From IMG/VR virus record IMGVR_UViG_3300045988_183361: 64,000 nucleotides of DNA. One strand, 5' to 3'. How positions within the stretch are numbered: position 1 is the first letter of the stretch; each line of letters opens with the position of its first letter. Shown here in pieces: positions 6,082 to 59,451 of this stretch. The position numbers and the translations under genes are program-made. Source of the DNA: a virus. The notes under the pieces are model-generated. The model was not told the origin of the DNA and ran no database searches. It was given only the letters and a program-made list of their open reading frames with translations.

Positions 6082-7110
6082 TTACATAAAAGATTGTATA
6101 CTATATCCTTTCCGTCTGAAACGAACTCTAATCTTTTTTATTGCTTTTGATTCAATCTGTCTGATTCGTTCTCTGGATACATTCCATTCAGTACCTATAT
6201 CTTGTAAAGTTTTAACTTTTGAGCCATATCCCATTCTACCCTTAATTACATATAATTCTCTAGGAGTGAGACAATCTTCAACTTCTTTCCAAAGCAGTTC
6301 TTTCATTTCTTTTTGAATAATCGTATCTTCAACTTTAGGTTCAGGAGCTTCTATATAATCAGCCAAACATGAATCGTCATGGCCTTCATCACTTTGAATA
6401 GGTGCATCTAATGAAACCAATTCATTAAAACTCTGAATATGCACAAGCATTTCTTTAGTTAAAAGAGGATATCTTTGTTTTACTACATCATATAATTCAT
6501 CAATTGTAGGTTTTCTTTGAAGTTTATTAGTTAAATCCACAAATGTAGTCTTAACAAAAGAATCCTGTTCTCTTACATGTACAGGGAATCTAACTAATAA
6601 ATCATAATTGGCTAATTCTCTATATATACTCTGTCTAATCCAATGAGTTGCATAAGTTGAAAATGCATATCCTAATTTATAATCAAACATTTGTATAGCT
6701 CTGTATAACCCGAAAATACCGGCCTGACATAAATCATCCATTTCAAAACTTTGCGTTTTAGCTGTAACAGCTTTAGCAATACTGATGACTAAACGCATAT
6801 TAGATAAAATCAATTTTTCGGTTATTTCTTTTTTCTTTTTAGGATGTTTTTTTATCTCTTCAAATAATTTAAGAGTTTCATCTTTGGATAAAACCGGATA
6901 ATCAGCGAATGATTTAATATAATAAGTTATATTATTTTCTAATAATAGTTTCTCTTTTTCATTTAAAATCTCTTTATCATTTAAAATATCGGTATAATTA
7001 TCCTCTGATAAAATATTTATGTTTTCTATTGGTTTATTTGTATCAAATAATTCATCAATATATTCATCTTTATTGTTTTTTTTATTTAATAATAAATTCT
7101 TATCTGCCAT
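6082..7110 (-). CDS. sigma-70 family RNA polymerase sigma factor (regions 2 and 4 present)
   Basis: region 2-like YAFSTYATHWIRQSI; region 4.2 HTH LQDIGTEWNVSRERIRQIESKAIKKIR. Confidence 0.85.
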   Translation of the reverse strand: MADKNLLLNKKNNKDEYIDELFDTNKPIENINILSEDNYTDILNDKEILNEKEKLLLENNITYYIKSFADYPVLSKDETLKLFEEIKKHPKKKKEITEKLILSNMRLVISIAKAVTAKTQSFEMDDLCQAGIFGLYRAIQMFDYKLGYAFSTYATHWIRQSIYRELANYDLLVRFPVHVREQDSFVKTTFVDLTNKLQRKPTIDELYDVVKQRYPLLTKEMLVHIQSFNELVSLDAPIQSDEGHDDSCLADYIEAPEPKVEDTIIQKEMKELLWKEVEDCLTPRELYVIKGRMGYGSKVKTLQDIGTEWNVSRERIRQIESKAIKKIRVRFRRKGYSIQSFM

Positions 7111-16539: not shown

Positions 16540-17477
16540 ATATACCCCTACTTTCGTAGTACTTTAACACTTGTATAAGTGGGATTAGACTATATCTCAA
16601 TATAATATTGTTAATATTATATTTCAACGCACTTCCAACTGTAACCATTCTCAGTTGTACTCCTTAAAAAGGATAGTCGTTACACTTTAAAATAAATAAT
16701 ATTATATACGAACAATTTTTAAGTCATTCCATTTTAAATATTTATGCATTGAGGAATAACTTGCGTTATATTTTTCTTTAGCATATCGAGCTGCTGCTAA
16801 TATGCTTTCAAATCTATCAATTAATATATCTCCTTTATATAATTTACAACACTTATAATTTCTTACAGGAGACATAGTTTTATAACTATCATATAAATTG
16901 TCTTTTCTAGTACACCATTCTAAATTATTCACCTTACAATTTTGTTTATTTTTGTCTTTATGATTAACTTCTGGTAGATTATAAGGATTAGGAATAAAAT
17001 TCATCGCAACTAATCGATGCAATAAAAATTTTTTATTATCTAATCTTATCATCCTGTAATTCTTTTTACTATCTAAAAAAGGTTTAAGTTGTCGAATTTT
17101 CCCTTGTTTTATACTAAAAATCTTTCCATATGAAGTTATGTAATATTCGTGGTGATTTTTAATTTCTACTATTTTTTCACCTTTTTCAAGGAATGATGTA
17201 AAATTGATATAATCTATCATAAATATACACCTCCTTATTTATATAATATTATTTATAATCTTAGCACGGTATCGCCTGCTATCCTTCAATATCTTTTATA
17301 TAAAAATACGAGGACCGTAGGTTCTCTTACGAAGCTGCTTCGTCTATGGGTTAAGCTATATATCCTGTTGTGACACTTTATATAGCAGTCTTATTCAACT
17401 TCTACCGTTAGCACTTAATAATAAAATATTAAGCACACCTCTGAGTTAGAGTCCACGCTGAACGCCCAATATATTTA
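16540..17477 (-). ncRNA. group I intron interrupting dnaE, with HNH homing-endonuclease ORF
   Basis: about 940 nt inserted exactly between ..ERVSMP and DIDSD.. of the DnaE active site; GC-richer structured flanks at 17221-17477 and 16540-16701 around an internal ORF with its own SD. Confidence 0.6.
16702..17220 (-). CDS. HNH homing endonuclease (intron-encoded)
   Basis: NHKDKNKQNCKVNNLEWCTRKDN HNH-type motif; SD AAGGAGGTG; sits inside the intron. Confidence 0.8.
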   Translation of the reverse strand: MIDYINFTSFLEKGEKIVEIKNHHEYYITSYGKIFSIKQGKIRQLKPFLDSKKNYRMIRLDNKKFLLHRLVAMNFIPNPYNLPEVNHKDKNKQNCKVNNLEWCTRKDNLYDSYKTMSPVRNYKCCKLYKGDILIDRFESILAAARYAKEKYNASYSSMHKYLKWNDLKIVRI

Positions 17478-19270
17478 GGCATACTTACTCTTTCTGGATT
17501 TAAGAATCGTTCAAAAATCAGATTATACTTAAATGGATCAATTCCGGTAATACCAAGTAAATATGTAACCAATGAACCGGCACCTGAACCTCTTCCAATG
17601 CCTATTCCAATTCCGGTATTATAATTGTGAGTCTTAACATACTCTTTTGCACCTTCAATTGTTAAAGGTACTTCTGATAGTTTATCCATAGGCACTAATC
17701 CACAAATTCTTCCATATTCCAGAAAGTCCTTTACAATTAAATGATAATCGGCAAAGCCCATCTGAATGATAATATTAAGTTCGTATTCCATTCGTTTCTG
17801 ATGTTCTTCATCCCATCCTTTTCCGTTAGGATATCTCCAATTAATTCCCTTAATTGCTTCAGATCTTAATAATTCGTTTGAGTCCTTGTTCTTATCAAAT
17901 ACTGGATAATGATTAGATTTTTCTGGAATATAAGCACATCTTTTTCCAATTACATTTAAGTTATTGAGTGCTTCTGCAACCTGATCATCTGTTAATATAG
18001 CTGATAAGGCCTGAGCAAGTTCGTAAGGTGTTTTTACATATAACTCTTTATCTGATTCCGACTCACTTATCTTAATAAATCTTAAAAATTTAGCTACATT
18101 ACGCATATCAATACTTCTATCAGAATTATCTGCCATATGTGCATCATTAGCAGCAACTAATGGGATATTATGCTTCCTTGCTAACTGAGCTAACACAGGA
18201 TATGTTCTGCTTTCCATTTCAAGCCCATGATTCTGAACTTCAATGTAATAATTACCTGCTCCAAAAATTTCCTGATAAAAAAGCATTGTCTTTTCTGCTT
18301 CAGACATTAATTCTATTGGGCTTTTCTTTAATGATTCATAATGCTGTATCTTATTTTCATGATTAATATATTCCTCTACTTTAAGACTTATATCCTTTAA
18401 CTCGGCTTTCTTAGCATTAACTAATTTTCTGACATTAGGAATTTTATCTTTAGCTTCCAGAATTTTATTATTTATCTCCTCATATTCGTTAATCAGTTTA
18501 ATAAGCTCTGGATCATCATCATTTAAACACTTTCTTGCATCTCTTAATTTTCTTGAAATCTGTGTTCTTTCTGATTTAAGTTCCTTGGAATCACGAATAT
18601 TAATCAATTCATCTAAATCTGCCGATACCCTTTCAAATTCATCTTTAGCTGAAAGATATTCTTTATCATCAGGACTTATACAATCACGTATAACTAGCTC
18701 GTCTTTTTCAGTAGTATGCTGCTGTGCTTTTCTTTCTCTGTTAATCATTTTATCCAAAACATCATCTGATAATAATTGCAGAGCTGGTGCACCCGAAACG
18801 CAAGCAGAAGTTGCTATTATATCACCGTTAAAGTTATATTTCTTTAAATCTGATATTGTAATAACAGGCTTTCCCATTCTTTTTTCAGAAGCCTTAGAAT
18901 TTAACTTATCAATAATATGCTTGCCTCTTTCTGAAGTGGCTAACATAATCATATGGCCAATCTGCTCATTTATCTTAAATGGTGGCACTTCAATATAAGC
19001 CTCTACGCCATAAATGATATTAAAAGGATGTTCCTCAGTACTTATTTTCTTAGCGTAATCAATACATGTTTGCATTGCTGAAAATGATGCATGGTCCGTA
19101 ACAGCAAATTTAGTATATCCTGCATTAAATGCAGCATCTAAATAACTTTTAGGTTCATCTACGGCATCAAACAAAGAGCCTCCTGGATGGTTATGTTCAC
19201 ACACTGTAACTCCTGACTCAATAACCTTTTTTGTTAATTCTCCAATTTTTACATGTTCAAACATTGACAT
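17429..19270 (-). CDS. dnaE: DnaE-type Pol III alpha, N-terminal PHP + palm segment (exon 1; coding part probably ends near 17478, remainder is intron read-through)
   Basis: PHP motifs [20 protein letters not shown]; palm [34 protein letters not shown]. Confidence 0.85.
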
Positions 19271-21964: not shown

Positions 21965-23314
21965 ATGGACATAAAATCAAGCTATGCAGTTGAAGTTAAG
22001 AATATTAACAAATTGTTCAATCCAACAATTAAAATTTATAATCAGGCTGTAACTTTTTGCATCCAGGTGTTTGAAAATGAGTGGTCTGTATTAAAAGATA
22101 TTAATGACTCAAAAATACAATGTGGTGTTGCAAGGAACTTAATTCATTCTACAAAGTCAAATAAAGCTAAGTATTCAGAGTTTGATAAATTGTTCCACAA
22201 AATGCCCAGCTATTGTACTACAGCAGTCATCAATGCATCTCTCGGTGTACTTAATTCTTATCATTCAAACTTACAGAACTGGTATGATGAAGGCTGCAAA
22301 GGTAATCGTCCTACATTGCAGATTCATACCAATAAATATCCAGTCTTTTATAAAGACAACATGTATAAGTGGGCTGATACAAAAAATGCCATACTGCTCA
22401 AGCTTTTTATAAACAATGACTGGCAGTGGGTAAAGCTGCGCTTAAAACATACTGATGTGCAAAGTATTAAAAAGCACAGTATCAATGCAAAAATTTCTGT
22501 GCCTACATTAGAGAAAAAGCATAAGAAATGGTTTCTGCGATTTGCGTTTGAAAGCAAAGCAATTTTAAATAAGACACCATTATCTAAGCAGAGAATCCTA
22601 GCCGTTGATCTGGGTATTAACACAGATGCTATCTGTTCAGTTATGGATTATTATGGAACTGTCCTTGCAAGATGTTTTATCAATCATGCAAGTGAAAAAG
22701 ACTATATTAAACATAATCTAAACAGGATAAAAAAGTATCAGGCTGCAGGGCAAAAAGATGTGGTCCGGAAGTTATGGAGTTTAGTTAAGAATTACAATAA
22801 TGAGCTTGCGTCAAAAACTGCTAATGCCATAGTGGATTATGCCAGACAATTAAATGTCGATGTTATAGTATTTGAACATCTGGATATGAAAGGCAGGAAG
22901 AGAGGATCCAAGCGCCAGTTATTACACATGTGGAATAAGAATACTATACAGAGAATTGTCACTCATAAGGCTCATTTATCAGGTATCCGCATCAGTCATA
23001 TATGTGCAAGGAACACAAGTAAGTTAGCATATGACGGTTCAGGATATGTACTAAGAGGAAAAGACGCAGGATTGCTTACATATGAACTTTGCAGATTCCA
23101 GACTGGCAAAATATATAACTGTGATTTATCTGCATCTTATAATATAGGAGCCAGATATTTTATTCGTGAAATCGAGAAATTATATACAGGGAAATCCATA
23201 TGTAAAAAAATAAACATATGGTCTGATATCCAGGCGAAAGTACCTGAATGTCAAAGAAGAACACAAAATACCCTTTCAACACTAAGAGCTATACATCAAT
23301 GTTTAGCAGTTTAG
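21965..23314 (+). CDS. tnpB: TnpB (OMEGA RuvC-like RNA-guided nuclease)
   Basis: RILAVDLGINTDA (RuvC-I), VIVFEHLDMKG (RuvC-II E), Cys zinc-finger, NCDLSASYNIGARYF (RuvC-III). Confidence 0.85.
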   Translation: MDIKSSYAVEVKNINKLFNPTIKIYNQAVTFCIQVFENEWSVLKDINDSKIQCGVARNLIHSTKSNKAKYSEFDKLFHKMPSYCTTAVINASLGVLNSYHSNLQNWYDEGCKGNRPTLQIHTNKYPVFYKDNMYKWADTKNAILLKLFINNDWQWVKLRLKHTDVQSIKKHSINAKISVPTLEKKHKKWFLRFAFESKAILNKTPLSKQRILAVDLGINTDAICSVMDYYGTVLARCFINHASEKDYIKHNLNRIKKYQAAGQKDVVRKLWSLVKNYNNELASKTANAIVDYARQLNVDVIVFEHLDMKGRKRGSKRQLLHMWNKNTIQRIVTHKAHLSGIRISHICARNTSKLAYDGSGYVLRGKDAGLLTYELCRFQTGKIYNCDLSASYNIGARYFIREIEKLYTGKSICKKINIWSDIQAKVPECQRRTQNTLSTLRAIHQCLAV

Positions 23315-28055: not shown

Positions 28056-30977
28056 TTAAGATACTGACTTCTTATTTTTAGGCTTAGTACTATATGCAGC
28101 AGCAATTTTTTTTGTATCAATTTTTGCAAGTGCTGATGAATTCTTCTTAGCTTTGGCAGGAGAAGATGTATGAGAATTAGCTCTTACCTTTTTAATCTTA
28201 GCATCCTGTTCTCTTAACTTAGCTGCTTCCTTTAATGCCTTGTTTGGATCAATAGGAACATAATTAGTATTAGTTACATCAAATACTTCCTTAAGGAATG
28301 TGTTATATATTTCTCCATGTTCCTTATCTGAATAACAAACATATTGACCTGTTATAAATAATTCATCCTTTGCTCTGGTTAAAGAAACAAACAATAATCT
28401 TCTCATTTCCTCAATTTCTTTTTCATGATTAACTTTATTACGGATGCTATGCAAATGCTTGCTATCATACTTTGTAACACTGTTAAATATAACCGGCCAT
28501 TCAAGTCCTTTTGATGAGTGAGCTGTTGTAAGTACAACACCTTCGTAAGTCTGTTCCATTTTCTTGCAGCAATTAGTTCCAAATACTTTAAAATCCTGAA
28601 TATACTCTAACTCAGACTGTAAATCCTCATTTGCATATACCAAATCTAAGAAATATTCATAGATTTCATCTCCTTCATCTCCCTTAAGTGCGTCAAGCAT
28701 ATTATGGAAAATTTGTCTCTGAGACGGAATCGCTATCATATCCATATTCATAAACTGCTGCTTTAGTTTAGAGATTTCATCATTAATATCATTAAATGAT
28801 AAAAGATTTAATATTTCTCCATTATATTTCGCAGCCAGATAATCTAAATAAAGCTTATCTGCTTCAGGCTGATAAAATGCATCAGCTAAAGATAATGCAG
28901 CTTTAACCTTTCCGTTTTCAGCTAATGGCATTGGATTCATCATAACCCAAGGAATATTTGCTTTTGATAATGCGGCCCCAATAGAAACAAGTTCAGCCTT
29001 TGTATATGTAAGCACTGCAATGTCTTCTGGAATATGTTCGTTTAAATCCAACATCTCTTTAATTGTATCTACAATATACTCAATTTCTTCATCTTTGCTA
29101 TAAAAGCCCTTTACTGTTACAGGTGCACCATGATCCTTACATGGATTCATAGCTTTAATAAGTCTTTCCTTATTAAGTGCTTCTATATCAGTTGCAACCT
29201 TAAGTATTTCAGGAGTACTTCTTCTATTAACTGATAAATTAATATCTATACCTTTTATGCCTAACTTATCGAAGAAATGAATCATGTTTTCCGGAGATGT
29301 ATGTCTGAACCCATAAATACTCTGAGAATCATCACCTACAACCATTAAAGACTCAAAACATTTACAATTACATAGCTCCTTTATTGTATCCATCTGAATA
29401 TCATTAGAATCCTGAAACTCATCTACTATAATATGCTTAAAACCTAATCTTTCTAAATAACCCGGATGCGCATTGATAATGTTAAACATCATTGGTTCCT
29501 GATCAGCAAATGTAATAAGTGAATCTTCAAGTAGCTGTTTCTGGTATTCAGAATATAAATCTATTAACTGTGTAACAGCAATACCAGTGCCCATAAATCT
29601 TGAATAACCTTTATCTCTTAAAAGTTCTGTAAGCTGATTATTTGCATCTGGAAGTGTAATATCAACATGTTCAGTTTTAATCAACTCAAAGCATTTTTCA
29701 GCACAAGCTAATGCACCTCTTAAGTTCGGTGTATCTGTCATAAAGTTCAAGTAATCGATTCCGTTAATATGATTATCAGTTAATAATTGAGTAATAATCT
29801 TACGATTTCTTACATCATCAATTACAACAGGAGGATTTGTAAATCCCAATTCCTTATACTCAAATTTAACAATATTATAAGCAAAACTATTAAAAGTCAT
29901 TGCCTGAATATCGTCAGGACTTACAGAAAGTCCATAAGTTAAACACTTACTTGCGATCCTTGTTTTCATTTCTGCTGCACCTGCGTCTGTAAATGTTATA
30001 AATAACATTTCTTCCGGCTTGACACCTTCAACAAACATTTGTGCTCCTCTTTCAGTAACACATTCTGTTTTACCTGCACCGGCTGTAGCAATTACCCTTG
30101 CAATTCCTTTTCTAAAATCAACTATCTGCTGCTGTTCGTCTGATAAAATAATTTTGTCTCTCTTCTTAAGCGTTTTCTTTTCGAAATGTGCAGGAGTTTT
30201 TGTATAATGGCAAAGCATATTATAAGAACATGTTTTACAATCATCTTCTGTACACTGAATATGCCCCTGCTCAGATAAATTAATCTGCTTAATATAATCT
30301 AATTCTTCTCCACAAAGACTATCTTTACCCCATTCAACTTCTTTTTCAAATGAAACAACATTACCGCCGTAGCCTGAAAAGAAATCAGCATCAGTCATAC
30401 TTTTAGAAGTATCTGTGCTTTTTCTTAAGTAATAATAAGATCCTTTAATAATCTTTTTTTCACCTGGTTTAAGTAATGATTTTGCATATAAATATAATGC
30501 ATATATTTCCGGACACTTTAAAACAGATAAATCCTGTTTCTTGCCTGAGACAGTTACCACGGGCTTTGAAGCAAAAAACTTGATTGCTTCAATTTCATTT
30601 TTATTAACAGAAACAGCATCAGGTCTAATATGAATTGCGTAATCCTGACTTACAGGAATATCCTTAGCATCAACTTCAACTTCAAGTTTTCTTTTTTCGC
30701 AAGACGCATATCTTGTAAGAATTTCTGTAAGACGCTTAATTCTTCCTTCATTAGTTTCCGCAGGTAAATTATTCTCTTCAACACCTTCAGACACTAAATC
30801 ATGAAATTCATTAATCTGAAACTCACCTTTTAAATAACCCATAATAATCTGCTTAATAATAATAGCATTATCATAATTGTCATTTTTCTTTGTAGTAACT
30901 TCAATTTCCTTTTTTAAGTTCTTCATAAGACGACAATGATATTTGCCTCTTAACTCTTCTGATTTTAATACTTTCAT
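28056..30977 (-). CDS. UvrD/Rep-family SF1 helicase with N-terminal Cas4/PD-(D/E)xK-like nuclease region
   Basis: Walker A ATAGAGKTE, DEFQDSNDIQ, TAHSSKGLEWPVIF; N-terminal 280 aa with Cys cluster CTEDDCKTCSYNMLC. Confidence 0.7.
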   Translation of the reverse strand: MKVLKSEELRGKYHCRLMKNLKKEIEVTTKKNDNYDNAIIIKQIIMGYLKGEFQINEFHDLVSEGVEENNLPAETNEGRIKRLTEILTRYASCEKRKLEVEVDAKDIPVSQDYAIHIRPDAVSVNKNEIEAIKFFASKPVVTVSGKKQDLSVLKCPEIYALYLYAKSLLKPGEKKIIKGSYYYLRKSTDTSKSMTDADFFSGYGGNVVSFEKEVEWGKDSLCGEELDYIKQINLSEQGHIQCTEDDCKTCSYNMLCHYTKTPAHFEKKTLKKRDKIILSDEQQQIVDFRKGIARVIATAGAGKTECVTERGAQMFVEGVKPEEMLFITFTDAGAAEMKTRIASKCLTYGLSVSPDDIQAMTFNSFAYNIVKFEYKELGFTNPPVVIDDVRNRKIITQLLTDNHINGIDYLNFMTDTPNLRGALACAEKCFELIKTEHVDITLPDANNQLTELLRDKGYSRFMGTGIAVTQLIDLYSEYQKQLLEDSLITFADQEPMMFNIINAHPGYLERLGFKHIIVDEFQDSNDIQMDTIKELCNCKCFESLMVVGDDSQSIYGFRHTSPENMIHFFDKLGIKGIDINLSVNRRSTPEILKVATDIEALNKERLIKAMNPCKDHGAPVTVKGFYSKDEEIEYIVDTIKEMLDLNEHIPEDIAVLTYTKAELVSIGAALSKANIPWVMMNPMPLAENGKVKAALSLADAFYQPEADKLYLDYLAAKYNGEILNLLSFNDINDEISKLKQQFMNMDMIAIPSQRQIFHNMLDALKGDEGDEIYEYFLDLVYANEDLQSELEYIQDFKVFGTNCCKKMEQTYEGVVLTTAHSSKGLEWPVIFNSVTKYDSKHLHSIRNKVNHEKEIEEMRRLLFVSLTRAKDELFITGQYVCYSDKEHGEIYNTFLKEVFDVTNTNYVPIDPNKALKEAAKLREQDAKIKKVRANSHTSSPAKAKKNSSALAKIDTKKIAAAYSTKPKNKKSVS

Positions 30978-32777: not shown

Positions 32778-32811
32778 AAATTTTATTCCTTTCTTTTAGT
32801 AAAAATAAGCA

Positions 32812-32868
32812 TGAACTACTCACAAACGACATTAGTCGGATGGAGCTTTCTTGCTTGATTGCGATAAA
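32812..32868 (+). repeat. dispersed hairpin repeat, copy 4
   Basis: ATGAACTACTCACAAACGACATTAGTCGGATGGAGCTTTCTTGCTTGATTGCGATAA; in the flotillin leader. Confidence 0.75.
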
Positions 32869-32994
32869 CATCTTTTAAATTATTTTGTTTACGCCAGTCA
32901 TTAGTAATATGACAGATATTTAATTTATTTTTTTTACATAAAAAATGGCTATGTTTTCACATAGCCATTCAGGAGGGAGGTTTAAAATTTATTG

Positions 32995-38048: not shown

Positions 38049-38188
38049 AATATAACCTCCAAAAAAATAAACACAATAGTTCTTACAAAAAAAGTCTTAA
38101 TATCATAGTTTATTTACTATGACATTAAGACTCAAATAATATAATAATCAGCGTTAAACAAAAAAAATAATTTTTCATAATTTAGAAT

Positions 38189-38454
38189 AAAAGTAGGATG
38201 TTTAGCATAAATATTATTATATATTTTTTTATATTTTAATACATCAGCATATAGCAAAAGGATTTATGATTATAACAAGTTTATTCTTTATTTAATCCCG
38301 CAGGATATCTCAAAAGAAAACCTGATATAATCATACTTACTATTTGAGTATTAAAAAGTAGGATGCTATATATATTATGCCTTAAAATATAAATCTGAGT
38401 CAGCTTACAACAAATATAATAACCAAATTGTTTTTTATTTTAAAAAGTAGGATG
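38189..38454 (+). repeat. three direct copies of AAAAGTAGGATG(T/C)T in the leader region of the 844-aa gene
   Basis: copies at 38189, 38354, 38443, each followed by an AT-rich TA-n-ATA tract. Confidence 0.4.
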
Positions 38455-38533
38455 TTGTAAATAATACTCAAAATACTCCATTAATTTGAAAGCATATATA
38501 ATATGACAGAAATAAAAAATAATATGATGATTT

Positions 38534-40340: not shown

Positions 40341-42113
40341 TTAATAATCAATATCATCGAAAATAATCTGTGGAGTTGTTACGCCATTCCATATATTTTC
40401 ACTTAATCTTCCATATAAAGTTAAAACAGTTGGTTCTCCAAGCTTTTCAAATTTTTCAACTAACCCGCCAAAATTAATTGCGTTAGCCTGATTATTAAAG
40501 AGTTTTAAAACCTTTTTTTCAGCACCCAAAAGCTGATAATATACACCTTTTCTTAGTTCTGTCATATAAGAAATTTTATATCTTGGCTCTTCAAATCCTT
40601 TGCCAAAGATATAATTATGAAAGGCTTCCTGCTCTTCCTTTACCTGCTCTACTGTAATATCGTAATCATAATACTTGTAATTGAACTCTTTTGGCTTTTC
40701 TCCTGCAGCTTCATGTATAGCTTCAATAAACTTATCCATATTTTCAGCTTTAACTTCTGAAATACCTGCTGCATACGGATGTCCTCCATAATTACCCATA
40801 TACTGCTTAACCTGATCTAATAATAACTTCATATTAACATTTGCCCCTTCAATTTCTGGTGCTCTTGCAGAACCTTTATAGGCGGTACCATTATTTATTG
40901 GAGCAAATACAATAACAGAAGTATTGTATTCTTCCTGTAACTTACCGGCAATTAAGCCAATAACTCCCGGATGTATTTCTCCTTCCTTACCACATATAAC
41001 AATAGGATAGTCATTTTCCATATGAGCTTCCTCTATACGCTGTTTTAAAACAGGTAAAAGGTCATTAGTATATGCCTTTCTTCTTTCGTTTGCTTCTACT
41101 AGAACCTTTGCTTTTGCAATTGCTGTAACAAAGTCGTTGTCATTCTGAAGGAAAAGGTCTACTACCTGATTAGAACCAAAAGTTTCCAGTCTTGAAATAG
41201 CGTTAATGGTAGGACTTATTAAATAAGCTAAATCATCAGTTGTTACAACAGTTTCAAGATCAGGTTTAAGGCCTACAAGTAAGCAGAACATTCCGGTTGT
41301 ACGTCCAGAATTCTGTGTTAATGTAAATAACCCGTTCTTGAGTATTAAATAATTATCATATCCATATACTCCATTAATATTTTCAATTAAATTAACACTA
41401 TCACCAACAGTTGCGATAGCAGCAAGACCATTTATCTTATCTATTGTTTCATCTTTGATATACCATTCTGGCAAATTTAATTGCTTAATATGCTGAGCAA
41501 ATTTATATACAAGCCCTGCACCACAATAATCTGAGAATTTTGCACCACAATCAACTGCATGAGGATCAATAATTACATCTGCAGGTGGCAATATTTTTTT
41601 ATTGGTTTCGTCAGTAACTGGAAGGTGATGATCTAAAATAAGAACACTCCAACCTAATTCTTTTGCCTTTGTTATTGCGTCAAGAGCTGCGATACCATTA
41701 TCTACAGTTATTAACAATCCTGTATCATAATTTTTTATAACTGGTAAACCATGAATTGATATTTCATTACATAAATATTCTACAATATTTGCAGAAGCTC
41801 CATATCCATCTAATTCTCTATCTGGTATATACCATTTTACATCTGAGAATTTAAGGTCTAACAACATAAGATTTAATTCAGATGTTGAACATATTCCATC
41901 GGTATCATAATCTCCTATTATTCTAACTGGCTTATATTTAAATAAACTAAGTAAATTAAACGCCTTGTCAAAATCGGAAATTTTGTAATATTCAGATGTT
42001 TCTCTACCATTATTAAAATCAGCAAAATATTTATTTGCTTTTTCAATAAAATTTACCTCATCAGTATTTTTCTTCTTCCATGTTATACACATATAATTTG
42101 TTCTCCTTTTCAA
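40341..42113 (-). CDS. RecJ-like DHH-family ssDNA exonuclease
   Basis: IIGDYDTDGICS (DHH motif I), ILDHH (DHH motif III). Confidence 0.7.
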   Translation of the reverse strand: MKRRTNYMCITWKKKNTDEVNFIEKANKYFADFNNGRETSEYYKISDFDKAFNLLSLFKYKPVRIIGDYDTDGICSTSELNLMLLDLKFSDVKWYIPDRELDGYGASANIVEYLCNEISIHGLPVIKNYDTGLLITVDNGIAALDAITKAKELGWSVLILDHHLPVTDETNKKILPPADVIIDPHAVDCGAKFSDYCGAGLVYKFAQHIKQLNLPEWYIKDETIDKINGLAAIATVGDSVNLIENINGVYGYDNYLILKNGLFTLTQNSGRTTGMFCLLVGLKPDLETVVTTDDLAYLISPTINAISRLETFGSNQVVDLFLQNDNDFVTAIAKAKVLVEANERRKAYTNDLLPVLKQRIEEAHMENDYPIVICGKEGEIHPGVIGLIAGKLQEEYNTSVIVFAPINNGTAYKGSARAPEIEGANVNMKLLLDQVKQYMGNYGGHPYAAGISEVKAENMDKFIEAIHEAAGEKPKEFNYKYYDYDITVEQVKEEQEAFHNYIFGKGFEEPRYKISYMTELRKGVYYQLLGAEKKVLKLFNNQANAINFGGLVEKFEKLGEPTVLTLYGRLSENIWNGVTTPQIIFDDIDY

Positions 42114-47785: not shown

Positions 47786-47817
47786 AAATTATTACAATCC
47801 TTTCCATTATTAAATTT

Positions 47818-47874
47818 ATGAACTACTCGCAACTGACTATTGTCGGATGTAGTTTTCTTGCTATTCTTCGATAA
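47818..47874 (+). repeat. dispersed hairpin repeat, copy 6
   Basis: ATGAACTACTCGCAACTGACTATTGTCGGATGTAG...; in the uvrD leader. Confidence 0.8.
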
Positions 47875-47890
47875 AATCTTTTATTTAAAA

Positions 47891-47898
47891 TATGACAG
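47891..47898 (-). promoter_or_regulatory. CTGTCATAT box upstream of hairpin-repeat copy 6 and uvrD
   Basis: order on minus strand: terminator, box, repeat, SD, ATG 47785. Confidence 0.45.
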
Positions 47899-53603: not shown

Positions 53604-53984
53604 TTAATCTGGATTATATGGATATTCTATAAAGAATTCATATTCCGGATTGTCGCTCATTAAGCGGGCAATATTTTCTGCTTTGGATACATAATATGTA
53701 TGTCTGTTATCCAACCCATCCTTTTCATTAAGCATTTCGCACTTAGCTCGTGTAACAATCTTATGAAACTGATTCCCGGATAAATCTACAATTATTTCGT
53801 TATCTCTATAGAAATAATCAATATTCTTTTTTTCAAGAATTTTGTTAATATAAGGAATTAATTCTTCTTTTGCCTTCTTAAAATGTCTCATATATAAGAC
53901 TCCCTTCTTGGAGTTATTCTCCATTAAATTTATTGATAAAAAATATATGACAGAAAAAACAGTATATGTTAAAGATTTATCCAA
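53604..53984 (-). CDS. hypothetical protein
   Basis: ORF track. Confidence 0.5.
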
Positions 53985-56310
53985 ACTGTTGTCTTTTTAT
54001 TAAAATATTATTATATATTTCATCCCAGTATTTATTTATAGCATCAATTTCTTGTTGATCAGTTAATGCGTTCTTATCGATAATAACATCATCAAGACTT
54101 TTTATAACAGTATTAGCAGTTTTATAATCTGAAATATTAGTATTCTCAGCTTCTTTTAAAGCATCATATGCTTTTTTGTAACAAAAACTGGCCTTTTCAT
54201 AATTAGGAAAATCGATTTGAAAAAAATCTTTTTTACCAGAATTATAATTACATTTTTTCCCTTCCCAGTCAATATAATGCTCATAAATAGTTTCAGGTTT
54301 CTCAAATTCCTTATTATCTAAATTCTGGTGCAAATATTCATTAAACTGCTTCCATATTTCTCCACATATTGCTGAACCATTATCAAAATTTTTAGGAATA
54401 TCATATCCGGTCCATATACATGTTGTGTAATATGGTGTATATGCACATAGCCAAGAGTCCTTGTTATCATTCGTTGTTCCAGTTTTTCCTGCACAAATCT
54501 GATTATCTATTTGATAATTTTTGACGTATCCTTCTGTAAAATTTGAAATTAAACAATCTGTCATCATATAAGCGGTGCCTTTTTTATATACTTGAATATC
54601 TTCTTTATTTTGATATATTTCTTCATTTTGACGCAACATATGTTTGATGCATGTATTATTATTGTATTTACCATTATTAGCTAATGCATTGTATGCTTTA
54701 GTCATGTTTTCTACTGTTACACCATTTGTAAAACCACCTATGGCAATTGCAGCATTATTATTATCTTCATATGAAATATTATAAAAGTGCATTTTATTTA
54801 AATACTCTAAACAATTATTTATTCCAACATTCATTAATGTTTTAACAGCCGTTGTATTGACTGATTGTAATAAAGCTGTTCTTACTGAAATATTGCCTCT
54901 GTAATATCCATCATGATTTTTAGGCTGATATTTACCCTCAAGTGGAGAATCCAAAATCATAGATGATGGATGATAGTCTAAAATATCAAAAGCCGGAGCA
55001 TAATCTAATATTGGTTTAATGGAAGAGCCTGGTTGTCTAGGAGATTGATATGCTCTATTTATATATTCATTATCTTCTTGTCCACCTATAATTGCTCTAA
55101 CATATCCAGTTTCATTATCAATACACATGGATGATGTTTGAAGAAGATGCCGCCCATCCTCGGATAAGCTGTTATCATATTGTGATAAAACATTTTTTGA
55201 AATTTGTAATAGCTCAAGCTGCTTATCTTTATCTATTGAAGTATATATCCTGTATCCTCCAGTTAATATTTCTTCTTTGTACTTAGAGTATATTTTATTA
55301 TATTGATTAATATAATCTTGCTCATCTTCTGAAGAATCAAAAAGGTATTTAAAATTAAATCCATTTATTTCCATAAGATATTCAATAGAACATTTAAGTG
55401 TATATGAAAATTCATAAGATGTTGGTAAATCAGATGTTTCTTTATATAAAATTAAATCAAGAGGATCTTCTAATGCTTCATTGTATTGTTTTTCTGTAAT
55501 TATTTTCTGATTATACATTGTATTAAGGACTTGATTTCTTTTACATATTGCTAATTCATAATTTGTTTCAGGATTATATTTTGTAGGGGCATTTGAAATA
55601 CCTATTAACATTGCGGCCTGAGATATTGTTACATCAGATGCATCACATCCAAAATAATATTTACAAGCTGCCTGAATTCCGTAACAATTGCTGCCGTAGA
55701 AATTAGAGTTTAAATACATTTCAAGTATTTGTTCTTTAGAATATGACTTTTCCATTTCAAGTGATGCTATCATTTCAGTAAGTTTTCTATCTATTGTTTT
55801 GTCTGAATTTTTTATAACAATATTTTTTACAACTTGTTGTGTGATTGTACTGCCGCCCTGAGTTATTTTCCCTTTATTCTTTATATAAGCCAAAGAAGCT
55901 CGTAACAATGCTTTAGCATCAATACCTTTATGAATATAGAAATTCTTATCTTCCACAGCAATATATCCTTGTATTATATAATCACTGACATCGCTGATAT
56001 TAACATATTCATAAGAGCCGTTAATATTAGCTGCCATTAATGTGCCATCATCATAATAAAAATATGTATTCAGTTCTTTATTAAATTCATTTTGGTTCAT
56101 ATTTTGTAATGACTCATATGCATTTTCCTGTGCCAATTTGAATTTACTGTAAAATTTAATATAAAATACTGATAATGATATTAAAGATAATAATATGACT
56201 ATCATAATAATCAATATAAAAATTTTAAATATGGTTAAAAGATGATTTTTCTGTTTTTTTAGTGGAATATTTTTATCATCATTATAAAGTGGTTGTTTTT
56301 TAGAACTCAT
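53977..56310 (-). CDS. class A penicillin-binding protein (GT51 transglycosylase + transpeptidase)
   Basis: N-terminal [14 protein letters not shown] (GT51), [11 protein letters not shown] (SxxK), KTGTT (KTG). Confidence 0.8.
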
Positions 56311-56344
56311 AATTTTTCTCCTTTATATTTATTTACACAATAAA

Positions 56345-56358
56345 TATGACAGAGAATA
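56345..56358 (-). promoter_or_regulatory. TTCTCTGTCATAT box for the PBP gene
   Basis: preceded by terminator AAAGCTCTCACCTTAATGGTGGGAGCTTT + U-run. Confidence 0.5.
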
Positions 56359-56588
56359 ACAAAAAGCTCCCACCATTAAGGTGAGAGCTTTAATCAAAGT
56401 TGCTAGTAGAATTGTAAAATTCTATTAAAGTGTATTTTTACAACAAAATTACCGGCTTTAACAAAAGTGCTAGTCTTTGAGGAGGCATATATGTATGCCT
56501 AATATATACCGACAATATTTTATCACATTGTAAATTATAATACAATATTGATTTAATTATTATATGACAGATTTTTGACTGCAAATTT

Positions 56589-57722
56589 TTACATAATTTT
56601 ATTTTTGCCTGTTCTTTTAGCTTTATATAAATTTTTATCTGCTGCATCAAATAAATCATGAACGGTATTATTTTTTTTATATTCTGTTATTCCTCCAGAG
56701 AAAGTAAATTGCTGCGGAATATTCTCATATTTAATATTGTTGAATTTAATTCTGATATCGTTAATTATATTATACGCCTCAGTATATTCATAATCTGCAA
56801 ATAATATTCCGAATTCTTCACCTCCATATCTGGCGACAAAAATATTTGATTGGTTAATATTTTGAAGTTCCTTAGCTAAATTAATTAAAACAGTATTTCC
56901 AAATTCATGTCCATATGTATCGTTAACTGATTTAAAATCATCTATATCTATTATACAAAAATAAAGTTTTTTCTTATATGATATCCATTTCTTTGTTGTA
57001 TTAAAAAGAGACCTATAATTATCTAATCGAGTTAATCCATCTTGTGAAATTTCTTTTAATAATTGCGCATTTCTATTTTCAGATAAAACCAGTTTAAGTT
57101 CTTTTTCTTTCTCATATTTAATAACAAGTCTCGAATAAATATATGCAAATATTGTTATGATACATGATAAAAACATATATATTAAATAATTTGATGGTAA
57201 CTTATTTAATTCAGAGATTGATGATAATGAAATTGTAATAATTTCAAATTGACTTATCAAAAATAATTGCCAATTAACCTTGTTACTACCATATACAATA
57301 CACATAAAAATTGGGCAGGCTATTAATGTATATAATACCGGATAATTATAATGAATGATAATTGAAACCACTATAATTAAAGTTAAAATATACAAAGGCA
57401 TGGCTTCATATATTTCTGGTATAATATTATCTTGATATTTTCTTATGATTTGTCTACCGGTAAACCATATTATTAAATTAGATGTAGTAGGTGTAAATAC
57501 ATTCAATATAATATAAGATAATATATTTATTGTTTGTTTTTCTATTATTATATGTATTGGTATAAATAATAATTCAAAAACAAATATTGTGATTATTATA
57601 AGAAGGTTAATAGCCATTATTTTATTTTGAAATTTATTATACAAATATGCGTATAAACTGGTTTGTTTTTCTGTATGCTCTATTGTATTATCTTGTATTT
57701 TAATTTTTTCTATTGTTTTCAT
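56589..57722 (-). CDS. membrane-anchored GGDEF diguanylate cyclase
   Basis: 5-6 TM N-terminus; RYGGEEFGILF active-site motif. Confidence 0.8.
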   Translation of the reverse strand: MKTIEKIKIQDNTIEHTEKQTSLYAYLYNKFQNKIMAINLLIIITIFVFELLFIPIHIIIEKQTINILSYIILNVFTPTTSNLIIWFTGRQIIRKYQDNIIPEIYEAMPLYILTLIIVVSIIIHYNYPVLYTLIACPIFMCIVYGSNKVNWQLFLISQFEIITISLSSISELNKLPSNYLIYMFLSCIITIFAYIYSRLVIKYEKEKELKLVLSENRNAQLLKEISQDGLTRLDNYRSLFNTTKKWISYKKKLYFCIIDIDDFKSVNDTYGHEFGNTVLINLAKELQNINQSNIFVARYGGEEFGILFADYEYTEAYNIINDIRIKFNNIKYENIPQQFTFSGGITEYKKNNTVHDLFDAADKNLYKAKRTGKNKIM

Positions 57723-57862
57723 AATAATATTTATTAATCACTGAATCCCTTATCTTCAGATAAGGGAAGAAGCAATTCTCCTTTCTGCCATATTGCATCT
57801 TTTTGTTTCTAATATATGAGCATTTTACAAAGTTATTATCATTTTTTTTATTAAATCTAACA

Positions 57863-59077
57863 TTACTCTGTTGCATCATAAAATTCTTTCTCTGGATACA
57901 ATTCGTTTAAATTTTCTGCTAAATCTATTTCTTCAAGTAAAGCATTATAATTCATTTTAATTTTTTCAGATTTAATTAAACTTAACATAGCATCTGCAAT
58001 TACAGGATCAAATTGAGTACCTTTACCCTTTTCAAGCTCATTAACTACAATTATTGAATCTAAATGTTTCCTATATACTCTGTCACTTGTCATTGCGTCA
58101 AAGGCATCTGCTACAGAAATAATTCTTGCAATATAAGGTATTTGTTCTCCCTTTAAGCCATCTGGGTATCCTTTTCCGTCATATCTTTCATGATGATATT
58201 TTGCTCCTAAATCAATGTCCTTAAGCATTGACATATCTTTTAAGATATTTCCGCCTATTACTGTGTGGTTCTTCATTACTTGGTACTCTTCATTTGTTAA
58301 TTTTCCTGGTTTGTTTAATATGCTATCCGGAATTCCTAGTTTTCCTATATCATGCAATAGTGCTATTGAATGAATATCTTCAATCTCATTTTTATTCATT
58401 CCTAATTTATATGCTAATAAGGCTGTATAATCTGCTACTCTGGTTGAATGGCCTTTGGTGTAATTATCTCTGGCATCGATAATATTTGCTATAGTTGTAA
58501 CTGTTTGGAGAGACATTTTATTAATTTGTTCTATTTGATTTATTATTGTTTGTGTATTTTGCAAATTTAGGTCTGTATTTCTTTTATAAAACTTTGAAAC
58601 AATATATGCTGCTGCAAAGCATAAAATAATTATTGCAAGTTGAATCTCCATGTCTTTGCCACCTGATTTATCAATTTTATTATATGTCTTAATAAATATT
58701 GCTGTAATATTCAACACTGTCGAAAATAACCCGGTTACTATAATTAAAGTTGGATCATAATATAAAATTAAAAGCAGGATAATTGGGAATATATAAGTAA
58801 AACATAAAACAGTATTTCCTGTAAATAAGGTAAATGTATACATTATTAAAAACGAGAATGTTACAAAATATTTTAAAAATAGCCAGTTTTTATTATAAAT
58901 AAAAACCAACCACCCTGTTAAATTCGGGATACTAATTAATATAGCAAATATTGCAAAATATGGTGGTGATATAGCATGTTTTAACATTTCACCAAAATAA
59001 ATGCCTAATAGTGTTATTGTTATTACTGACCAACCACATAAAAGTGATGTATTTAATCTTTCTTGTTCTCTATCCAT
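57863..59077 (-). CDS. membrane-anchored HD-GYP c-di-GMP phosphodiesterase
   Basis: multi-TM N-terminus; LHDIGK (HD) and HHERYDGKGYP (GYP) motifs. Confidence 0.8.
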   Translation of the reverse strand: MDREQERLNTSLLCGWSVITITLLGIYFGEMLKHAISPPYFAIFAILISIPNLTGWLVFIYNKNWLFLKYFVTFSFLIMYTFTLFTGNTVLCFTYIFPIILLLILYYDPTLIIVTGLFSTVLNITAIFIKTYNKIDKSGGKDMEIQLAIIILCFAAAYIVSKFYKRNTDLNLQNTQTIINQIEQINKMSLQTVTTIANIIDARDNYTKGHSTRVADYTALLAYKLGMNKNEIEDIHSIALLHDIGKLGIPDSILNKPGKLTNEEYQVMKNHTVIGGNILKDMSMLKDIDLGAKYHHERYDGKGYPDGLKGEQIPYIARIISVADAFDAMTSDRVYRKHLDSIIVVNELEKGKGTQFDPVIADAMLSLIKSEKIKMNYNALLEEIDLAENLNELYPEKEFYDATE

Positions 59078-59117
59078 AGGTCCTCCTTATAGTCAAAAAA
59101 AGTTATATTAATATATA

Positions 59118-59131
59118 TATGACAGATAATA
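59118..59131 (-). promoter_or_regulatory. CTGTCATATAT box for the HD-GYP gene (probably also GGDEF)
   Basis: 40 nt upstream of ATG 59077, SD AAGGAGG; no box between HD-GYP and GGDEF. Confidence 0.5.
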
Positions 59132-59295
59132 TTAAAAAAAGAGTTCAACGTGACTAAGTAAGATCATGCTTACCGTTACCGCTGAACCCTTTTTATAAAA
59201 AATATAATTAGCTCCTTTATTTTTAGCTAATAATAATATGACAGAATTAAAATAAATAAAGCGTAGAATAATTAATTCTACGCTTTACACAATCA

Positions 59296-59439
59296 TTATT
59301 TATTAATTTTTTTCTGATGTAAATTATTTATAAAAGTGATTGCCTCAGGAGGCAATGGAGAAAATCTATATACTTTTTTCATTTCTTCTTCGCAGCATAT
59401 ACCTGCTCGTTTTAATTCATATATATTTTTCTTTTTCAT
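59296..59439 (-). CDS. small hypothetical protein (about 47 aa)
   Basis: own translation MKKKNIYELKRAGICCEEEMKK...; SD GGAGGAAATTTT; followed by a terminator and a TGTCATAT box. Confidence 0.3.
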   Translation of the reverse strand: MKKKNIYELKRAGICCEEEMKKVYRFSPLPPEAITFINNLHQKKINK

Positions 59440-59451
59440 AAAATTTCCTCC

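What the first reader, a model, noticed from the sequence alone, without database searches (positions are those of the whole stretch)
56353..56570. Transcription unit with promoter box and terminator but no ORF: small-RNA candidate
The box at 56563-56570 is followed on the minus strand by about 170 nt containing a stable hairpin (AGGCATACATATATGCCT) and only a 16-codon ORF without an SD. It is then closed by the strong terminator AAAGCTCTCACCTTAATGGTGGGAGCTTT + U-run (56370-56400). Elsewhere the box is followed by an SD-led ORF every time.
Basis: seen in the sequence. Interest (0 to 1): 0.5.

Follow-up and report, generated by a model that had tools for sequence, protein, structure and literature searches.

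The report
Candidate small RNA in a giant gut phage
Between a c-di-GMP synthase gene and a cell-wall synthase gene of a very large uncultivated human-gut phage-like element lies a promoter-to-terminator unit of about 200 bases with no credible protein, most likely a non-coding RNA; related elements keep the same layout, but neither the transcript nor its target has been shown.

Summary
The box CTGTCATAT (56570-56562, minus strand) is one of 30 sense-strand copies in 64 kb, against about 2 expected. It reads as an extended -10 promoter, with a start predicted at 56554. A strong terminator closes the unit (stem 56391-56363). Between them lie about 198 nt with no SD-led or conserved ORF and no Rfam match.

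Two corrections:
- The terminator sits about 8 nt from the stated coordinates.
- "Every other box has an SD-led ORF" is wrong. 59244 is a second orphan unit, 38509 opens 450 nt with no ORF above 41 codons, and 32915, 47898 and 27986 have 105-130 nt leaders.

The unit follows the GGDEF stop codon directly and shares the only terminator of the HD-GYP/GGDEF operon. The PBP1A gene downstream has its own complete promoter.

Two relative lineages (GGDEF about 57% identical) keep the same order: stop, upstream element, box, structured RNA, terminator, box, PBP. Their RNA has five compensatory pairs and is more conserved than synonymous sites. It is not detectably homologous to the window's RNA.

Best reading: a 3'-UTR-embedded, independently promoted non-coding RNA, possibly pairing with ribosome-binding sites through an exposed CCUCC. 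This mechanism is weakly supported. It is a new member of a known kind, of moderate interest.

The parts
56589..56594 (-). Upstream promoter element ATGTAA (class A: TTTTTTATGTAA, exactly 18 nt before the box). Here it is formed by the last Met codon and the stop codon of the GGDEF gene.
   Evidence: All 8 class-A sites of the window (4837, 8463, 24858, 32908, 39668, 44793, 47891, 56563) have ATG(T/C)AA exactly 18 nt before CTGTCATA. Relatives carry TTTTATGYCG at 17-18 nt.
56562..56570 (-). Promoter box CTGTCATAT. It reads as an extended -10: TGT followed by CATATW.
   Evidence: Among the 30 sense-strand copies, all but the intragenic 2873 lie in non-coding DNA ahead of a gene or orphan unit. 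The logo of those 29 has T at -1, an invariant CTGTCATA, T at +8, T at +15 (26/29) and A/G at +16 (27/29). The one plus-strand gene of the region (21965-23314) has a plus-strand box.
56554..56554 (-). Predicted transcription start (A preceded by T), 7 nt after the box.
   Evidence: Inferred from the conserved T(+15)/R(+16) in the logo. The finding's site has T at 56555 and A at 56554. Not measured.
56525..56548 (-). 5' hairpin AUAUUGUA / UACAAUGU with an 8-nt loop.
   Evidence: Present in the MFE and centroid folds.
56483..56500 (-). Central hairpin AGGCAUA-CAUA-UAUGCCU. An alternative pairing is GGUAUAUAU / AUAUAUGCC.
56479..56485 (-). C-rich motif CCUCCUC. CCUCAAAG (56482-56475) is unpaired, in an internal loop of the central domain.
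   Evidence: The fold leaves CCUCAAAG unpaired. CCTCC occurs only 8 times on the sense strand of the 64 kb.
56438..56488 (-). 16-codon ORF (MPPQRLALLLKPVILL) with no SD. Its ATG lies in the 3' arm of the hairpin. Judged non-coding.
   Evidence: There is no counterpart in the relatives' RNAs. The only change in the L001/L013 allele is non-synonymous (Leu to Ser, 56442 T>C).
56455..56474 (-). Direct repeat, copy 1: ACTAGCACTTTTGTTAAAGC.
   Evidence: (D1), read.
56387..56407 (-). Direct repeat, copy 2: ACTAGCAACTTTGATTAAAGC. It runs into the terminator stem. CAAAGACUAG / CUAGCAACUUUG can form a long-range helix.
56353..56391 (-). Intrinsic terminator with a 12-bp stem (6 G-C), a 5-nt loop and the tail TTTTTGTTATT. 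It is shared with the HD-GYP/GGDEF operon.
   Evidence: No other terminator-like site lies on the minus strand between 59125 and 56391.
56344..56352 (-). Second box CTGTCATAT: the PBP1A gene's own promoter. T/G at +15/+16 (56337/56336), SD AAAGGAG at 56324-56318, ATG at 56310.
   Evidence: box-to-ATG distance 34 nt; most boxes fall within 29-48 nt.

Best explanation
The unit is a real, independently promoted, terminator-closed non-coding RNA of about 198 nt (56554 to about 56357, minus strand). It is nested in the 3'UTR of the HD-GYP/GGDEF (c-di-GMP) operon of a very large phage-like element from the human gut.

Shown:
- a complete match to the element's own promoter type;
- a strong intrinsic terminator;
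- no credible ORF;
- a separate full promoter for the next gene;
- the same promoter-RNA-terminator layout in the other two GGDEF lineages (one search lists only three 90%-identity clusters above about 40% identity), where the RNA carries compensatory changes and evolves more slowly than synonymous sites.

Inferred:
- The RNA accumulates as a discrete species. The same sequence also exists as the tail of the operon mRNA, as in 3'UTR sRNAs that have their own promoter.
- It acts as RNA.
- My preferred mechanism is base pairing in trans through the exposed C-rich stretch (CCUCCUC / CCUCAAAG), which mimics the 16S anti-SD, onto GGAGG-type ribosome-binding sites of phage or host mRNAs, lowering their translation.

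Probabilities:
- discrete non-coding transcript: about 0.7;
- RNA-level function of any kind: about 0.5;
- the anti-SD pairing mechanism specifically: about 0.2-0.25.
For: Promoter:
- The box is 17-fold over-represented, strand-matched to genes, and lies 29-48 nt before most start codons.
- The logo gives TGT+CATATW plus a Y/R start 7 nt later.
- The finding's site also has the class-A upstream element at the exact 18-nt spacing.
- The window encodes an RpoD-like sigma factor.

Terminator.

Operon context: there is no terminator between the HD-GYP promoter (59125) and 56391.

No coding potential. Gene callers left the gap empty in 5 further assemblies.

PBP has its own promoter.

Relatives:
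- L005, L015, L026, L027-29 and L006-8 all have GGDEF stop, upstream element, box, RNA of about 140 nt, terminator, box, PBP.
- Of 32 pairs, 97.5% of cells are paired, against 28-43% when partners are slid. Five pairs show compensatory change.
- RNA body identity between L005 and L006 is 0.69, against 0.45 at four-fold sites of GGDEF.

C-rich loop:
- CCTCC is rare on the sense strand, 8 in 64 kb.
- It is unpaired in the fold.
- CACCUCC sits in the hairpin-2 loop of three relative lineages.
- The window's seed region pairs better with the 55 translation-initiation regions of the window than shuffled seeds do: mean -13.0 against -10.2 +/- 1.1 kcal/mol, with 1 of 100 shuffles as good.

Fold: the whole-unit z-score is -4.4 and the body alone -2.2.
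Against: - No expression data exist.
- The covariance model of the relatives' RNA does not find the window's RNA; only the terminator aligns, at 15 bits. Local alignment is no better than shuffles. The conservation argument is therefore by position and architecture, not homology.
- Within the window's lineage there are two alleles. SNP density in the RNA is 1.5-2%, against 1.0-1.3% in the flanking genes, so no extra constraint is visible.
- The central U of CCUCC is A in L026 and G in L027-29. That is hard to reconcile with a strict anti-SD seed.
- No specific target was found. There is no extended complementarity in the window beyond shuffle level. The better pairing with TIRs follows trivially from containing CCUCC.
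- Structure in the body is only moderate: 6 of 200 shuffles fold as well.
Confidence: 0.5

Rival explanations
1. The upstream box is a distal (class A) promoter of the PBP1A gene. The 200-nt RNA is then its leader, and the terminator is a leaky or regulated attenuator. The short RNA would be a by-product of premature termination (a 5'UTR-derived species), and PBP would have two promoters used at different times of infection.
For: - In the closest PBP lineage (L003, PBP 67% identical), the PBP gene is driven by a class-A promoter with a 120-nt structured leader and no intervening terminator.
- In the giant phage 201phi2-1, 8 of 11 sRNAs arise by premature termination in 5'UTRs (PMC11512511).
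- Terminator-then-promoter junctions occur between most genes here, so read-through may be common.
Against: - A complete proximal promoter lies between the terminator and the PBP gene.
- The terminator is strong, and I saw no alternative antiterminator pairing in the folds and repeat scan; this was not scanned for specifically.
- The unit is found only where GGDEF precedes PBP. It is absent from the four PBP lineages without GGDEF (L003, L004, L009, L010), so it travels with GGDEF rather than with PBP.
- The L003 leader is not significantly similar to the window RNA (p about 0.25).
Confidence: 0.2
2. The stretch is simply the 3'UTR and terminator of the HD-GYP/GGDEF operon. The box fires weakly or not at all, or yields an RNA without function, and the sequence between box and terminator is a spacer.
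For: - The GGDEF gene has no terminator of its own, so this stretch is necessarily its 3'UTR.
- The upstream element ATGTAA is formed by the conserved KIM-stop end of GGDEF and could be there for coding reasons.
- The window-type RNA shows no excess conservation and no homology to the relatives' RNA.
Against: - A chance full box in 200 nt is very unlikely; about 2 are expected in 128 kb of both strands.
- The relatives keep a box plus a separate upstream element at the right spacing.
- Their RNA body is conserved above synonymous sites and has compensatory pairs outside the terminator: helix 2 has 2 compensatory pairs and 100% of cells paired.
- A 140-200-nt spacer is kept in all lineages, although other gene junctions are far shorter: the terminator tail abuts the next box and the ATG follows within 29-48 nt.
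Confidence: 0.2
3. The unit encodes a small protein: the 16-codon hydrophobic ORF, or a type I toxin-like peptide.
For: An ATG ORF of 16 codons with a hydrophobic product exists.
Against: - It has no SD, and its ATG is buried in the hairpin arm.
- No equivalent ORF exists in any relative. The only shared reading frame there (TTG, MAFNNLLL...) has no SD and is broken by indels.
- The single substitution within the lineage is non-synonymous.
- There is no antisense promoter box.
Confidence: 0.03
4. It is a riboswitch or other ligand- or protein-sensing cis element, for example one sensing c-di-GMP, given the flanking HD-GYP and GGDEF genes.
For: Only the location, between c-di-GMP turnover genes and a cell-wall gene, and a terminator at its 3' end.
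Against: - No Rfam family reaches even E = 0.01 in 56200-56700. The weak hits are terminator look-alikes, and no GEMM-I/II or other riboswitch scores near its threshold.
- A promoter lies between the terminator and the PBP gene.
- The sequence is not conserved between lineages.
Confidence: 0.04

Closest known systems
sRNAs of giant and jumbo phages defined by a start site followed closely by a termination site (201phi2-1, phiKZ; PMC11512511)
   Same: A short promoter-to-terminator unit without a CDS in a very large phage genome. It is conserved by genomic position next to homologous genes in related phages, and its function is unknown.
   Different: Those were defined by ONT-cappable-seq; here nothing is measured. 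The host group (Pseudomonas against probably Clostridia/Lachnospiraceae), the promoter type and the sequences differ. Most of those arise in 5'UTRs, whereas this one sits in a 3'UTR.
3'UTR-embedded sRNAs with their own promoter that share the mRNA's terminator (for example DapZ and MicL of enterobacteria; from general knowledge)
   Same: The promoter lies at the very end of the upstream CDS, overlapping its stop codon. The sRNA and the operon mRNA share one intrinsic terminator.
   Different: Those are Hfq-dependent enterobacterial chromosomal sRNAs with mapped seeds and targets. No chaperone, seed or target is known here, and there is no sequence relation.
C-rich anti-SD sRNAs of Firmicutes (RsaE/RoxS, LhrC; from general knowledge)
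   Same: An unpaired C-rich motif that could pair with GGAGG ribosome-binding sites. The relatives carry CACCUCC, identical to the core of the 16S 3' end, in a hairpin loop, plus CU-rich linkers.
   Different: No Rfam match to those families. The window RNA has a single motif rather than several. The central base of the motif varies (U/A/G) among the relatives.
Lambda-encoded Hfq-dependent sRNAs (PreS/LPR1, LPR2; bioRxiv 10.1101/2024.10.31.621285) and classical phage RNAs (OOP, 6S of lambda)
   Same: Phage-encoded regulatory RNAs that act on host or phage mRNAs by base pairing.
   Different: No sequence or structural relation. The phage type and host are different, and those have experimentally shown targets.

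Membership tests
Any Rfam 15 family | Covariance-model score at or above the family's gathering threshold | tested here: not met
   The whole window at the gathering threshold gives only HEARO at 3665-3878. For 56200-56700 at E up to 10, the best hit is Thr_leader at 24.7 bits against a threshold of 55, and it aligns only the terminator.
c-di-GMP riboswitches (GEMM-I, c-di-GMP-II) | Match to the aptamer covariance model | tested here: not met
   Neither family appears among the 19 matches with E up to 10 in 56200-56700.
Independently transcribed bacterial or phage sRNA (generic class) | Own promoter | tested here: met
   Full match to the element-wide promoter motif, including the upstream element at 18 nt and T/A at +15/+16. 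This is a prediction only, not a mapped start.
Independently transcribed bacterial or phage sRNA (generic class) | Intrinsic terminator at the 3' end | tested here: met
   12-bp stem with 6 G-C and a T-run; 1 site found against 0.2 expected.
Independently transcribed bacterial or phage sRNA (generic class) | No conserved or SD-led ORF | tested here: met
Independently transcribed bacterial or phage sRNA (generic class) | Conserved sequence or structure with covariation in relatives | tested here: inconclusive
   The relatives' RNA at the same position has 5 compensatory pairs and is conserved above synonymous sites. The window RNA is not detectably homologous to it, and its own variants differ by at most 4 SNPs.
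Independently transcribed bacterial or phage sRNA (generic class) | Discrete transcript of the predicted size | not testable with these tools
   No expression data are accessible.
3'UTR-embedded sRNA with its own promoter | Same strand as the upstream CDS and directly downstream of it, sharing the mRNA's terminator | tested here: met
   The box starts 18 nt after the GGDEF stop. No terminator lies between 59125 and 56391 on the minus strand.
Anti-SD / C-rich seed sRNA (RsaE/RoxS-like mode of action) | Invariant unpaired C-rich seed complementary to SD sequences | tested here: inconclusive
   CCUCC is present and unpaired and pairs with TIRs better than shuffles. However, the equivalent motif in the relatives varies at its central base, U/A/G. 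There is no Rfam match to RsaE or RoxS.
Type I toxin-antitoxin | SD-led hydrophobic peptide gene plus an overlapping antisense RNA | tested here: not met
   The ORF has only 16 codons and no SD, is not conserved, and has no box on the opposite strand.
Transcription attenuator or leader of the downstream gene | Terminator directly precedes the regulated gene, with a competing antiterminator structure | tested here: not met
   A complete promoter separates the terminator from the PBP gene. No antiterminator pairing was noticed in the folds and repeat scan; no dedicated scan was run. Not excluded experimentally.

The most novel reading that the evidence does not exclude
A giant gut phage makes a dedicated RNA whose exposed loop copies the 3' end of 16S rRNA. 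The relatives carry (GAU)CACCUCC and the window carries GCCUCCUC. The RNA would be co-expressed from the tail of a c-di-GMP operon. It would titrate strong GGAGG Shine-Dalgarno sites of host or early-phage mRNAs and bias translation toward the phage's own weaker AAAGGAGAA-type sites. That would be an RNA-based translational take-over device, and the first functional sRNA family described for this huge-phage lineage.
Probability: 0.08. Interest if true: 0.7.

Novelty: new member of a known kind. Interest (0 to 1): 0.38.

Why it matters
Regulatory RNAs of phages are little explored. They are essentially unknown for the very large uncultivated phage-like elements of the human gut.

This element is widespread: the exact GGDEF protein is indexed in 403 blocks of the assembly collection, on contigs up to 463 kb read here and 777 kb listed. 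It carries host-like c-di-GMP and peptidoglycan genes.

A conserved promoter-RNA-terminator unit wedged between those genes gives a concrete, cheap target for metatranscriptome mapping. The element-wide promoter motif (TGTCATAT with a start 7 nt later) allows all its transcription units, including several other ORF-less ones, to be predicted from sequence alone.

Tried and rejected
- Rfam at the gathering and permissive thresholds gave nothing relevant.
- IMG/VR by protein, by alignment and by exact DNA returned only the same 95-kb UViG. The pattern of the relatives' loop motif was absent from IMG/VR and from GTDB genomes.
- GTDB genomes searched by the GGDEF alignment returned only distant bacterial GGDEFs.
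- GenBank phages gave no relative by DNA, and for the PBP protein only hits at 40% identity or less.
- The covariance model from the relatives, run against the window with default filters and with filters off, gave no real hit at the locus.
- Local alignment of the window RNA to the relatives' RNAs, and to the L003 PBP leader, was not above shuffles.
- A search for a covarying partner of the variable loop base in 4 kb of flanks found none. The tri-allelic columns upstream of HD-GYP were alignment artefacts.
- A search for extended complementarity of the RNA within the window found nothing beyond chance.
- Bacterial and phage GGDEF homologues at about 36% identity (L035, L037) have no such unit, no HD-GYP/PBP synteny and no box.
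- A literature search for the box sequence gave nothing relevant.
- One search printed a mis-registered comparison for L001 and L013. Only its result that L030-L034 are identical to the window is used.

Full report
**What is in the sequence**

On the minus strand the GGDEF gene (57722-56589) ends with ATG TAA at 56594-56589. Eighteen bases later comes CTGTCATAT (56570-56562). About 170 nt of non-coding sequence follow. They hold the hairpin AGGCATA-CATA-TATGCCT (56500-56483), which is immediately followed by CCTC.

An intrinsic terminator comes next: stem 56391-56363 (12 bp, 6 G-C, 5-nt loop) with a T-rich tail to about 56353. A second CTGTCATAT follows at 56352-56344, then the SD AAAGGAG (56324-56318) and the ATG of a PBP1A gene at 56310.

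The terminator is about 8 nt from the stated coordinates.

**Context**

- The window is 28% G+C, and almost all genes are on the minus strand.
- It encodes a split DnaE, RecA, RecJ, two UvrD-type helicases, a primase-like protein, a methyltransferase, PARP, TnpB and IscB with its HEARO RNA. It also encodes an RpoD-like sigma factor, an HD-GYP protein, a GGDEF protein and PBP1A.
- It has no tRNA.
- It is 99% identical to the IMG/VR contig IMGVR_UViG_3300029581_000240.
- It has no close relative among GTDB species genomes or GenBank phages.
- The exact GGDEF protein is indexed in 403 blocks of the assembly collection. Contigs up to 463 kb were read here, and contigs up to 777 kb are listed for the cluster.
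- I treat it as a very large, uncultivated phage-like element of the human gut. The nearest cellular PBP and GGDEF homologues are from Eubacterium, Lachnospiraceae and other Clostridia.

**The box is the element's promoter**

- CTGTCATA occurs 33 times against 1.9 expected, 30 of them on the coding strand.
- Apart from the intragenic copy at 2873, the sense-strand copies lie in non-coding DNA ahead of a gene or an orphan unit. They usually come directly after the T-run of the previous terminator and 29-48 nt before an SD-led start codon.
- The one plus-strand gene of the region has a plus-strand box.
- The logo of those 29 sites is T-CTGTCATAT, with T at +10, T at +15 (26/29) and A/G at +16 (27/29).
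- I read this as an extended -10 element (TGT plus CATATW) with a pyrimidine/purine start 7 nt downstream. This is an inference. It fits the sigma-70-family gene in the window.
- Eight sites, including the finding's, also carry TTTTTTATGTAA exactly 18 nt upstream of the box.
- The same box is used in related elements (L003, L004, L005, L006, L010, L015), but not in bacterial or more distant phage loci.
- For the finding, the predicted start is A 56554 and the RNA is about 198 nt.

**The claim of uniqueness is wrong**

- Box 59244 is followed by about 110 nt holding AAAGGAG without a canonical start, then a long hairpin with T7, and then the next box (59125).
- Box 38509, directly after the recA stop, opens about 450 nt with no ORF above 41 codons. 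That stretch holds three copies of CATCCTACTTTT.
- Boxes 32915 and 47898 have leaders of 105-130 nt that share a segment of about 55 nt.

ORF-less or long-leader units are therefore a recurrent feature of this genome.

**Not free-standing**

No terminator-like site lies on the minus strand between the HD-GYP promoter (59125) and 56391. The 200-nt stretch is therefore also the 3'UTR of an HD-GYP/GGDEF operon, and the unit shares that operon's terminator. The PBP gene has a complete promoter of its own, with T/G at +15/+16 and 34 nt to the ATG.

**Coding potential and known families**

No sense-strand ORF in the unit has an SD. Gene callers left the gap empty in five further assemblies. Rfam gives nothing: the best hit is 24.7 bits against a threshold of 55 and aligns only the terminator, and no riboswitch or known sRNA appears. 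The whole unit folds with z = -4.4, and the body without the terminator with z = -2.2.

**Relatives**

Above about 40% identity, the 5.8-billion-protein collection returns only three 90%-identity clusters of this GGDEF protein (plus a truncated window-type cluster). These are the window type, an L005/L015/L026/L027 type and an L006 type; the latter two are both about 57% identical to the window's.

In all of them the order is HD-GYP, GGDEF, a gap of 230-280 nt, then PBP. The gap holds an upstream element (TTTTATGYCG) at 17-18 nt, a box (CTGTCATAT or CTGTTATAT) with T/G at +15/+16, an RNA of about 140 nt, a terminator, a second box, an SD and the PBP start.

PBP lineages without GGDEF (L003, L004, L009, L010) lack the unit.

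The relatives' RNA has a 5' hairpin starting at +1, a 10-12-bp stem closing a loop of about 20-30 nt, a CU-rich linker (UUUCUCUUUA) and the terminator.

- On five distinct sequences, 97.5% of pair cells are standard pairs, against 28-43% when the partners are slid.
- Five pairs change on both sides, two of them in the non-terminator helix 2.
- RNA-body identity between L005 and L006 is 0.69, against 0.45 at four-fold degenerate sites of the adjacent GGDEF gene.

That RNA is under selection as a structured RNA.

**Limits of the comparison**

- The covariance model built from the relatives does not find the window's RNA. Only the terminator aligns, at 15 bits with filters off.
- Local alignments are no better than dinucleotide shuffles.
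- The same holds for the 120-nt PBP leader of L003, the closest PBP lineage.
- The window's allele is identical in six other assemblies. The second allele (L001, L013) differs at 3-4 positions of the RNA, a density of 1.5-2% against 1.0-1.3% in the flanking genes.

The window's RNA is thus supported by position and architecture, not by demonstrable homology or covariation.

**Mechanism**

The only shared sequence feature is a C-rich motif in the 3' part of the central loop.

- The window has GCCUCCUCAAAGAC.
- L005, L015 and L006 have CACCUCCGAAA(G)UAGA. In L006 the stretch GAUCACCUCC equals the 3' end of 16S rRNA (from general knowledge).
- CCTCC is rare on the sense strand, 8 in 64 kb, and CCUCAAAG is unpaired in the predicted fold.
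- The seed region pairs with the 55 translation-initiation regions of the window better than shuffled seeds: -13.0 against -10.2 +/- 1.1 kcal/mol, with 1 of 100 shuffles as good.

This suggests an anti-SD pairing RNA, but three observations argue against it:

- The central U is A in L026 and G in L027-29.
- No covarying partner was found nearby.
- No specific target with extended complementarity exists in the window.

I therefore commit to [quoted passage not shown]. Trans pairing to ribosome-binding sites is the most likely mode, but it is only weakly supported.

**Rivals**

- A distal PBP promoter with a leader terminator. Premature-termination sRNAs are the majority class in the giant phage 201phi2-1 (PMC11512511).
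- A functionless 3'UTR spacer.
- A small protein.
- A riboswitch.

Evidence and refutation tests for each are given in the Rival explanations section.

**Novelty**

Phage-encoded sRNAs are known, including promoter-to-terminator units in giant phages and sRNAs acting on host mRNAs (PMC11512511; bioRxiv 10.1101/2024.10.31.621285). This is a new, unvalidated member of that kind, in a lineage for which nothing is known. It matches no Rfam family.

Interest is moderate. The more striking facts are genome-wide: the invariant promoter, several ORF-less units, and c-di-GMP and peptidoglycan genes in a very large gut element.

Noticed in passing
window 59126-59244 (-): A second orphan unit. The box CTGTCATAT is followed by AAAGGAG without a canonical start codon, then a long hairpin GGGTTCAGCG...CGTTGAACTC with T7, and then immediately the next box (59125), which drives the HD-GYP gene. 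The L005-type relatives have no such unit at the equivalent place.
   Followed up: partly
window 38050-38509 (-): A box lies directly after the recA stop codon. About 450 nt follow with no ORF above 41 codons, holding three copies of CATCCTACTTTT(T)A. Then comes a hairpin with a T-run, then the SD and ATG of an 844-aa gene that has no box of its own. This is a candidate long non-coding RNA or leader.
   Followed up: no
window 32785-32915 (-) and 47786-47898 (-): Two class-A promoters are followed by leaders of 105-130 nt. The leaders share a segment of about 55 nt (TTTATCG..AGCAAGAAA.CT.CATCCGAC.A..GTC..TTG.GAGTAGTTCA) ahead of unrelated genes, one flotillin-like and one UvrD. There is no Rfam match. 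This is possibly a shared cis-regulatory RNA or operator.
   Followed up: partly
whole window; sigma gene 6082-7110 (-): There is an element-wide promoter, T-CTGTCATAT, with T/R at +15/+16. It has 30 sense-strand copies and two classes, one of which carries TTTTTTATGTAA exactly 18 nt upstream. The window also encodes an RpoD-like sigma-70 family protein. The box is conserved in related contigs.
   Followed up: partly
window 29735-29742 (+) and 40559-40566 (+): Two boxes lie on the opposite strand inside the UvrD-like gene and the RecJ gene. They could be antisense promoters or chance copies; about 2 are expected by chance.
   Followed up: no
window 2327-3878 (-): An IscB-type ORF (RRXRR + HNH) lies next to its HEARO/omega RNA (109.8 bits). 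The pair sits next to DNA polymerase III alpha, which is encoded in separate pieces (17429-19270, 8546-10231).
   Followed up: no
window 62381-63805: A TnpB (OrfB_IS605) gene lies here. Its DNA is 98% identical to the contig MT835844, 'Bacteriophage sp.', from human faeces. That was the only GenBank phage hit for the 20 kb searched.
   Followed up: no
window 57723-57862 (-): A 140-nt gap separates HD-GYP from GGDEF. The GGDEF ATG has no SD within 20 nt. An AAAGGAG lies 55 nt upstream, followed by the hairpin CCCTTATC-TGAA-GATAAGGG. In the relatives the two genes overlap by 4 nt.
   Followed up: no
L026:2619-2779, L027:2619-2774 (relatives' RNA): The loop motif CACC-N-CCGAAAUAGA is otherwise invariant, but its central base is U, A or G in closely related alleles. 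These are two independent changes at the same position.
   Followed up: partly
window 53977-60738 (-): A cluster of host-like signalling and envelope genes sits in a phage-like element: PARP-domain protein, HD-GYP, GGDEF and PBP1A. The exact proteins recur in hundreds of gut assemblies, on contigs of 0.2-0.8 Mb.
   Followed up: partly
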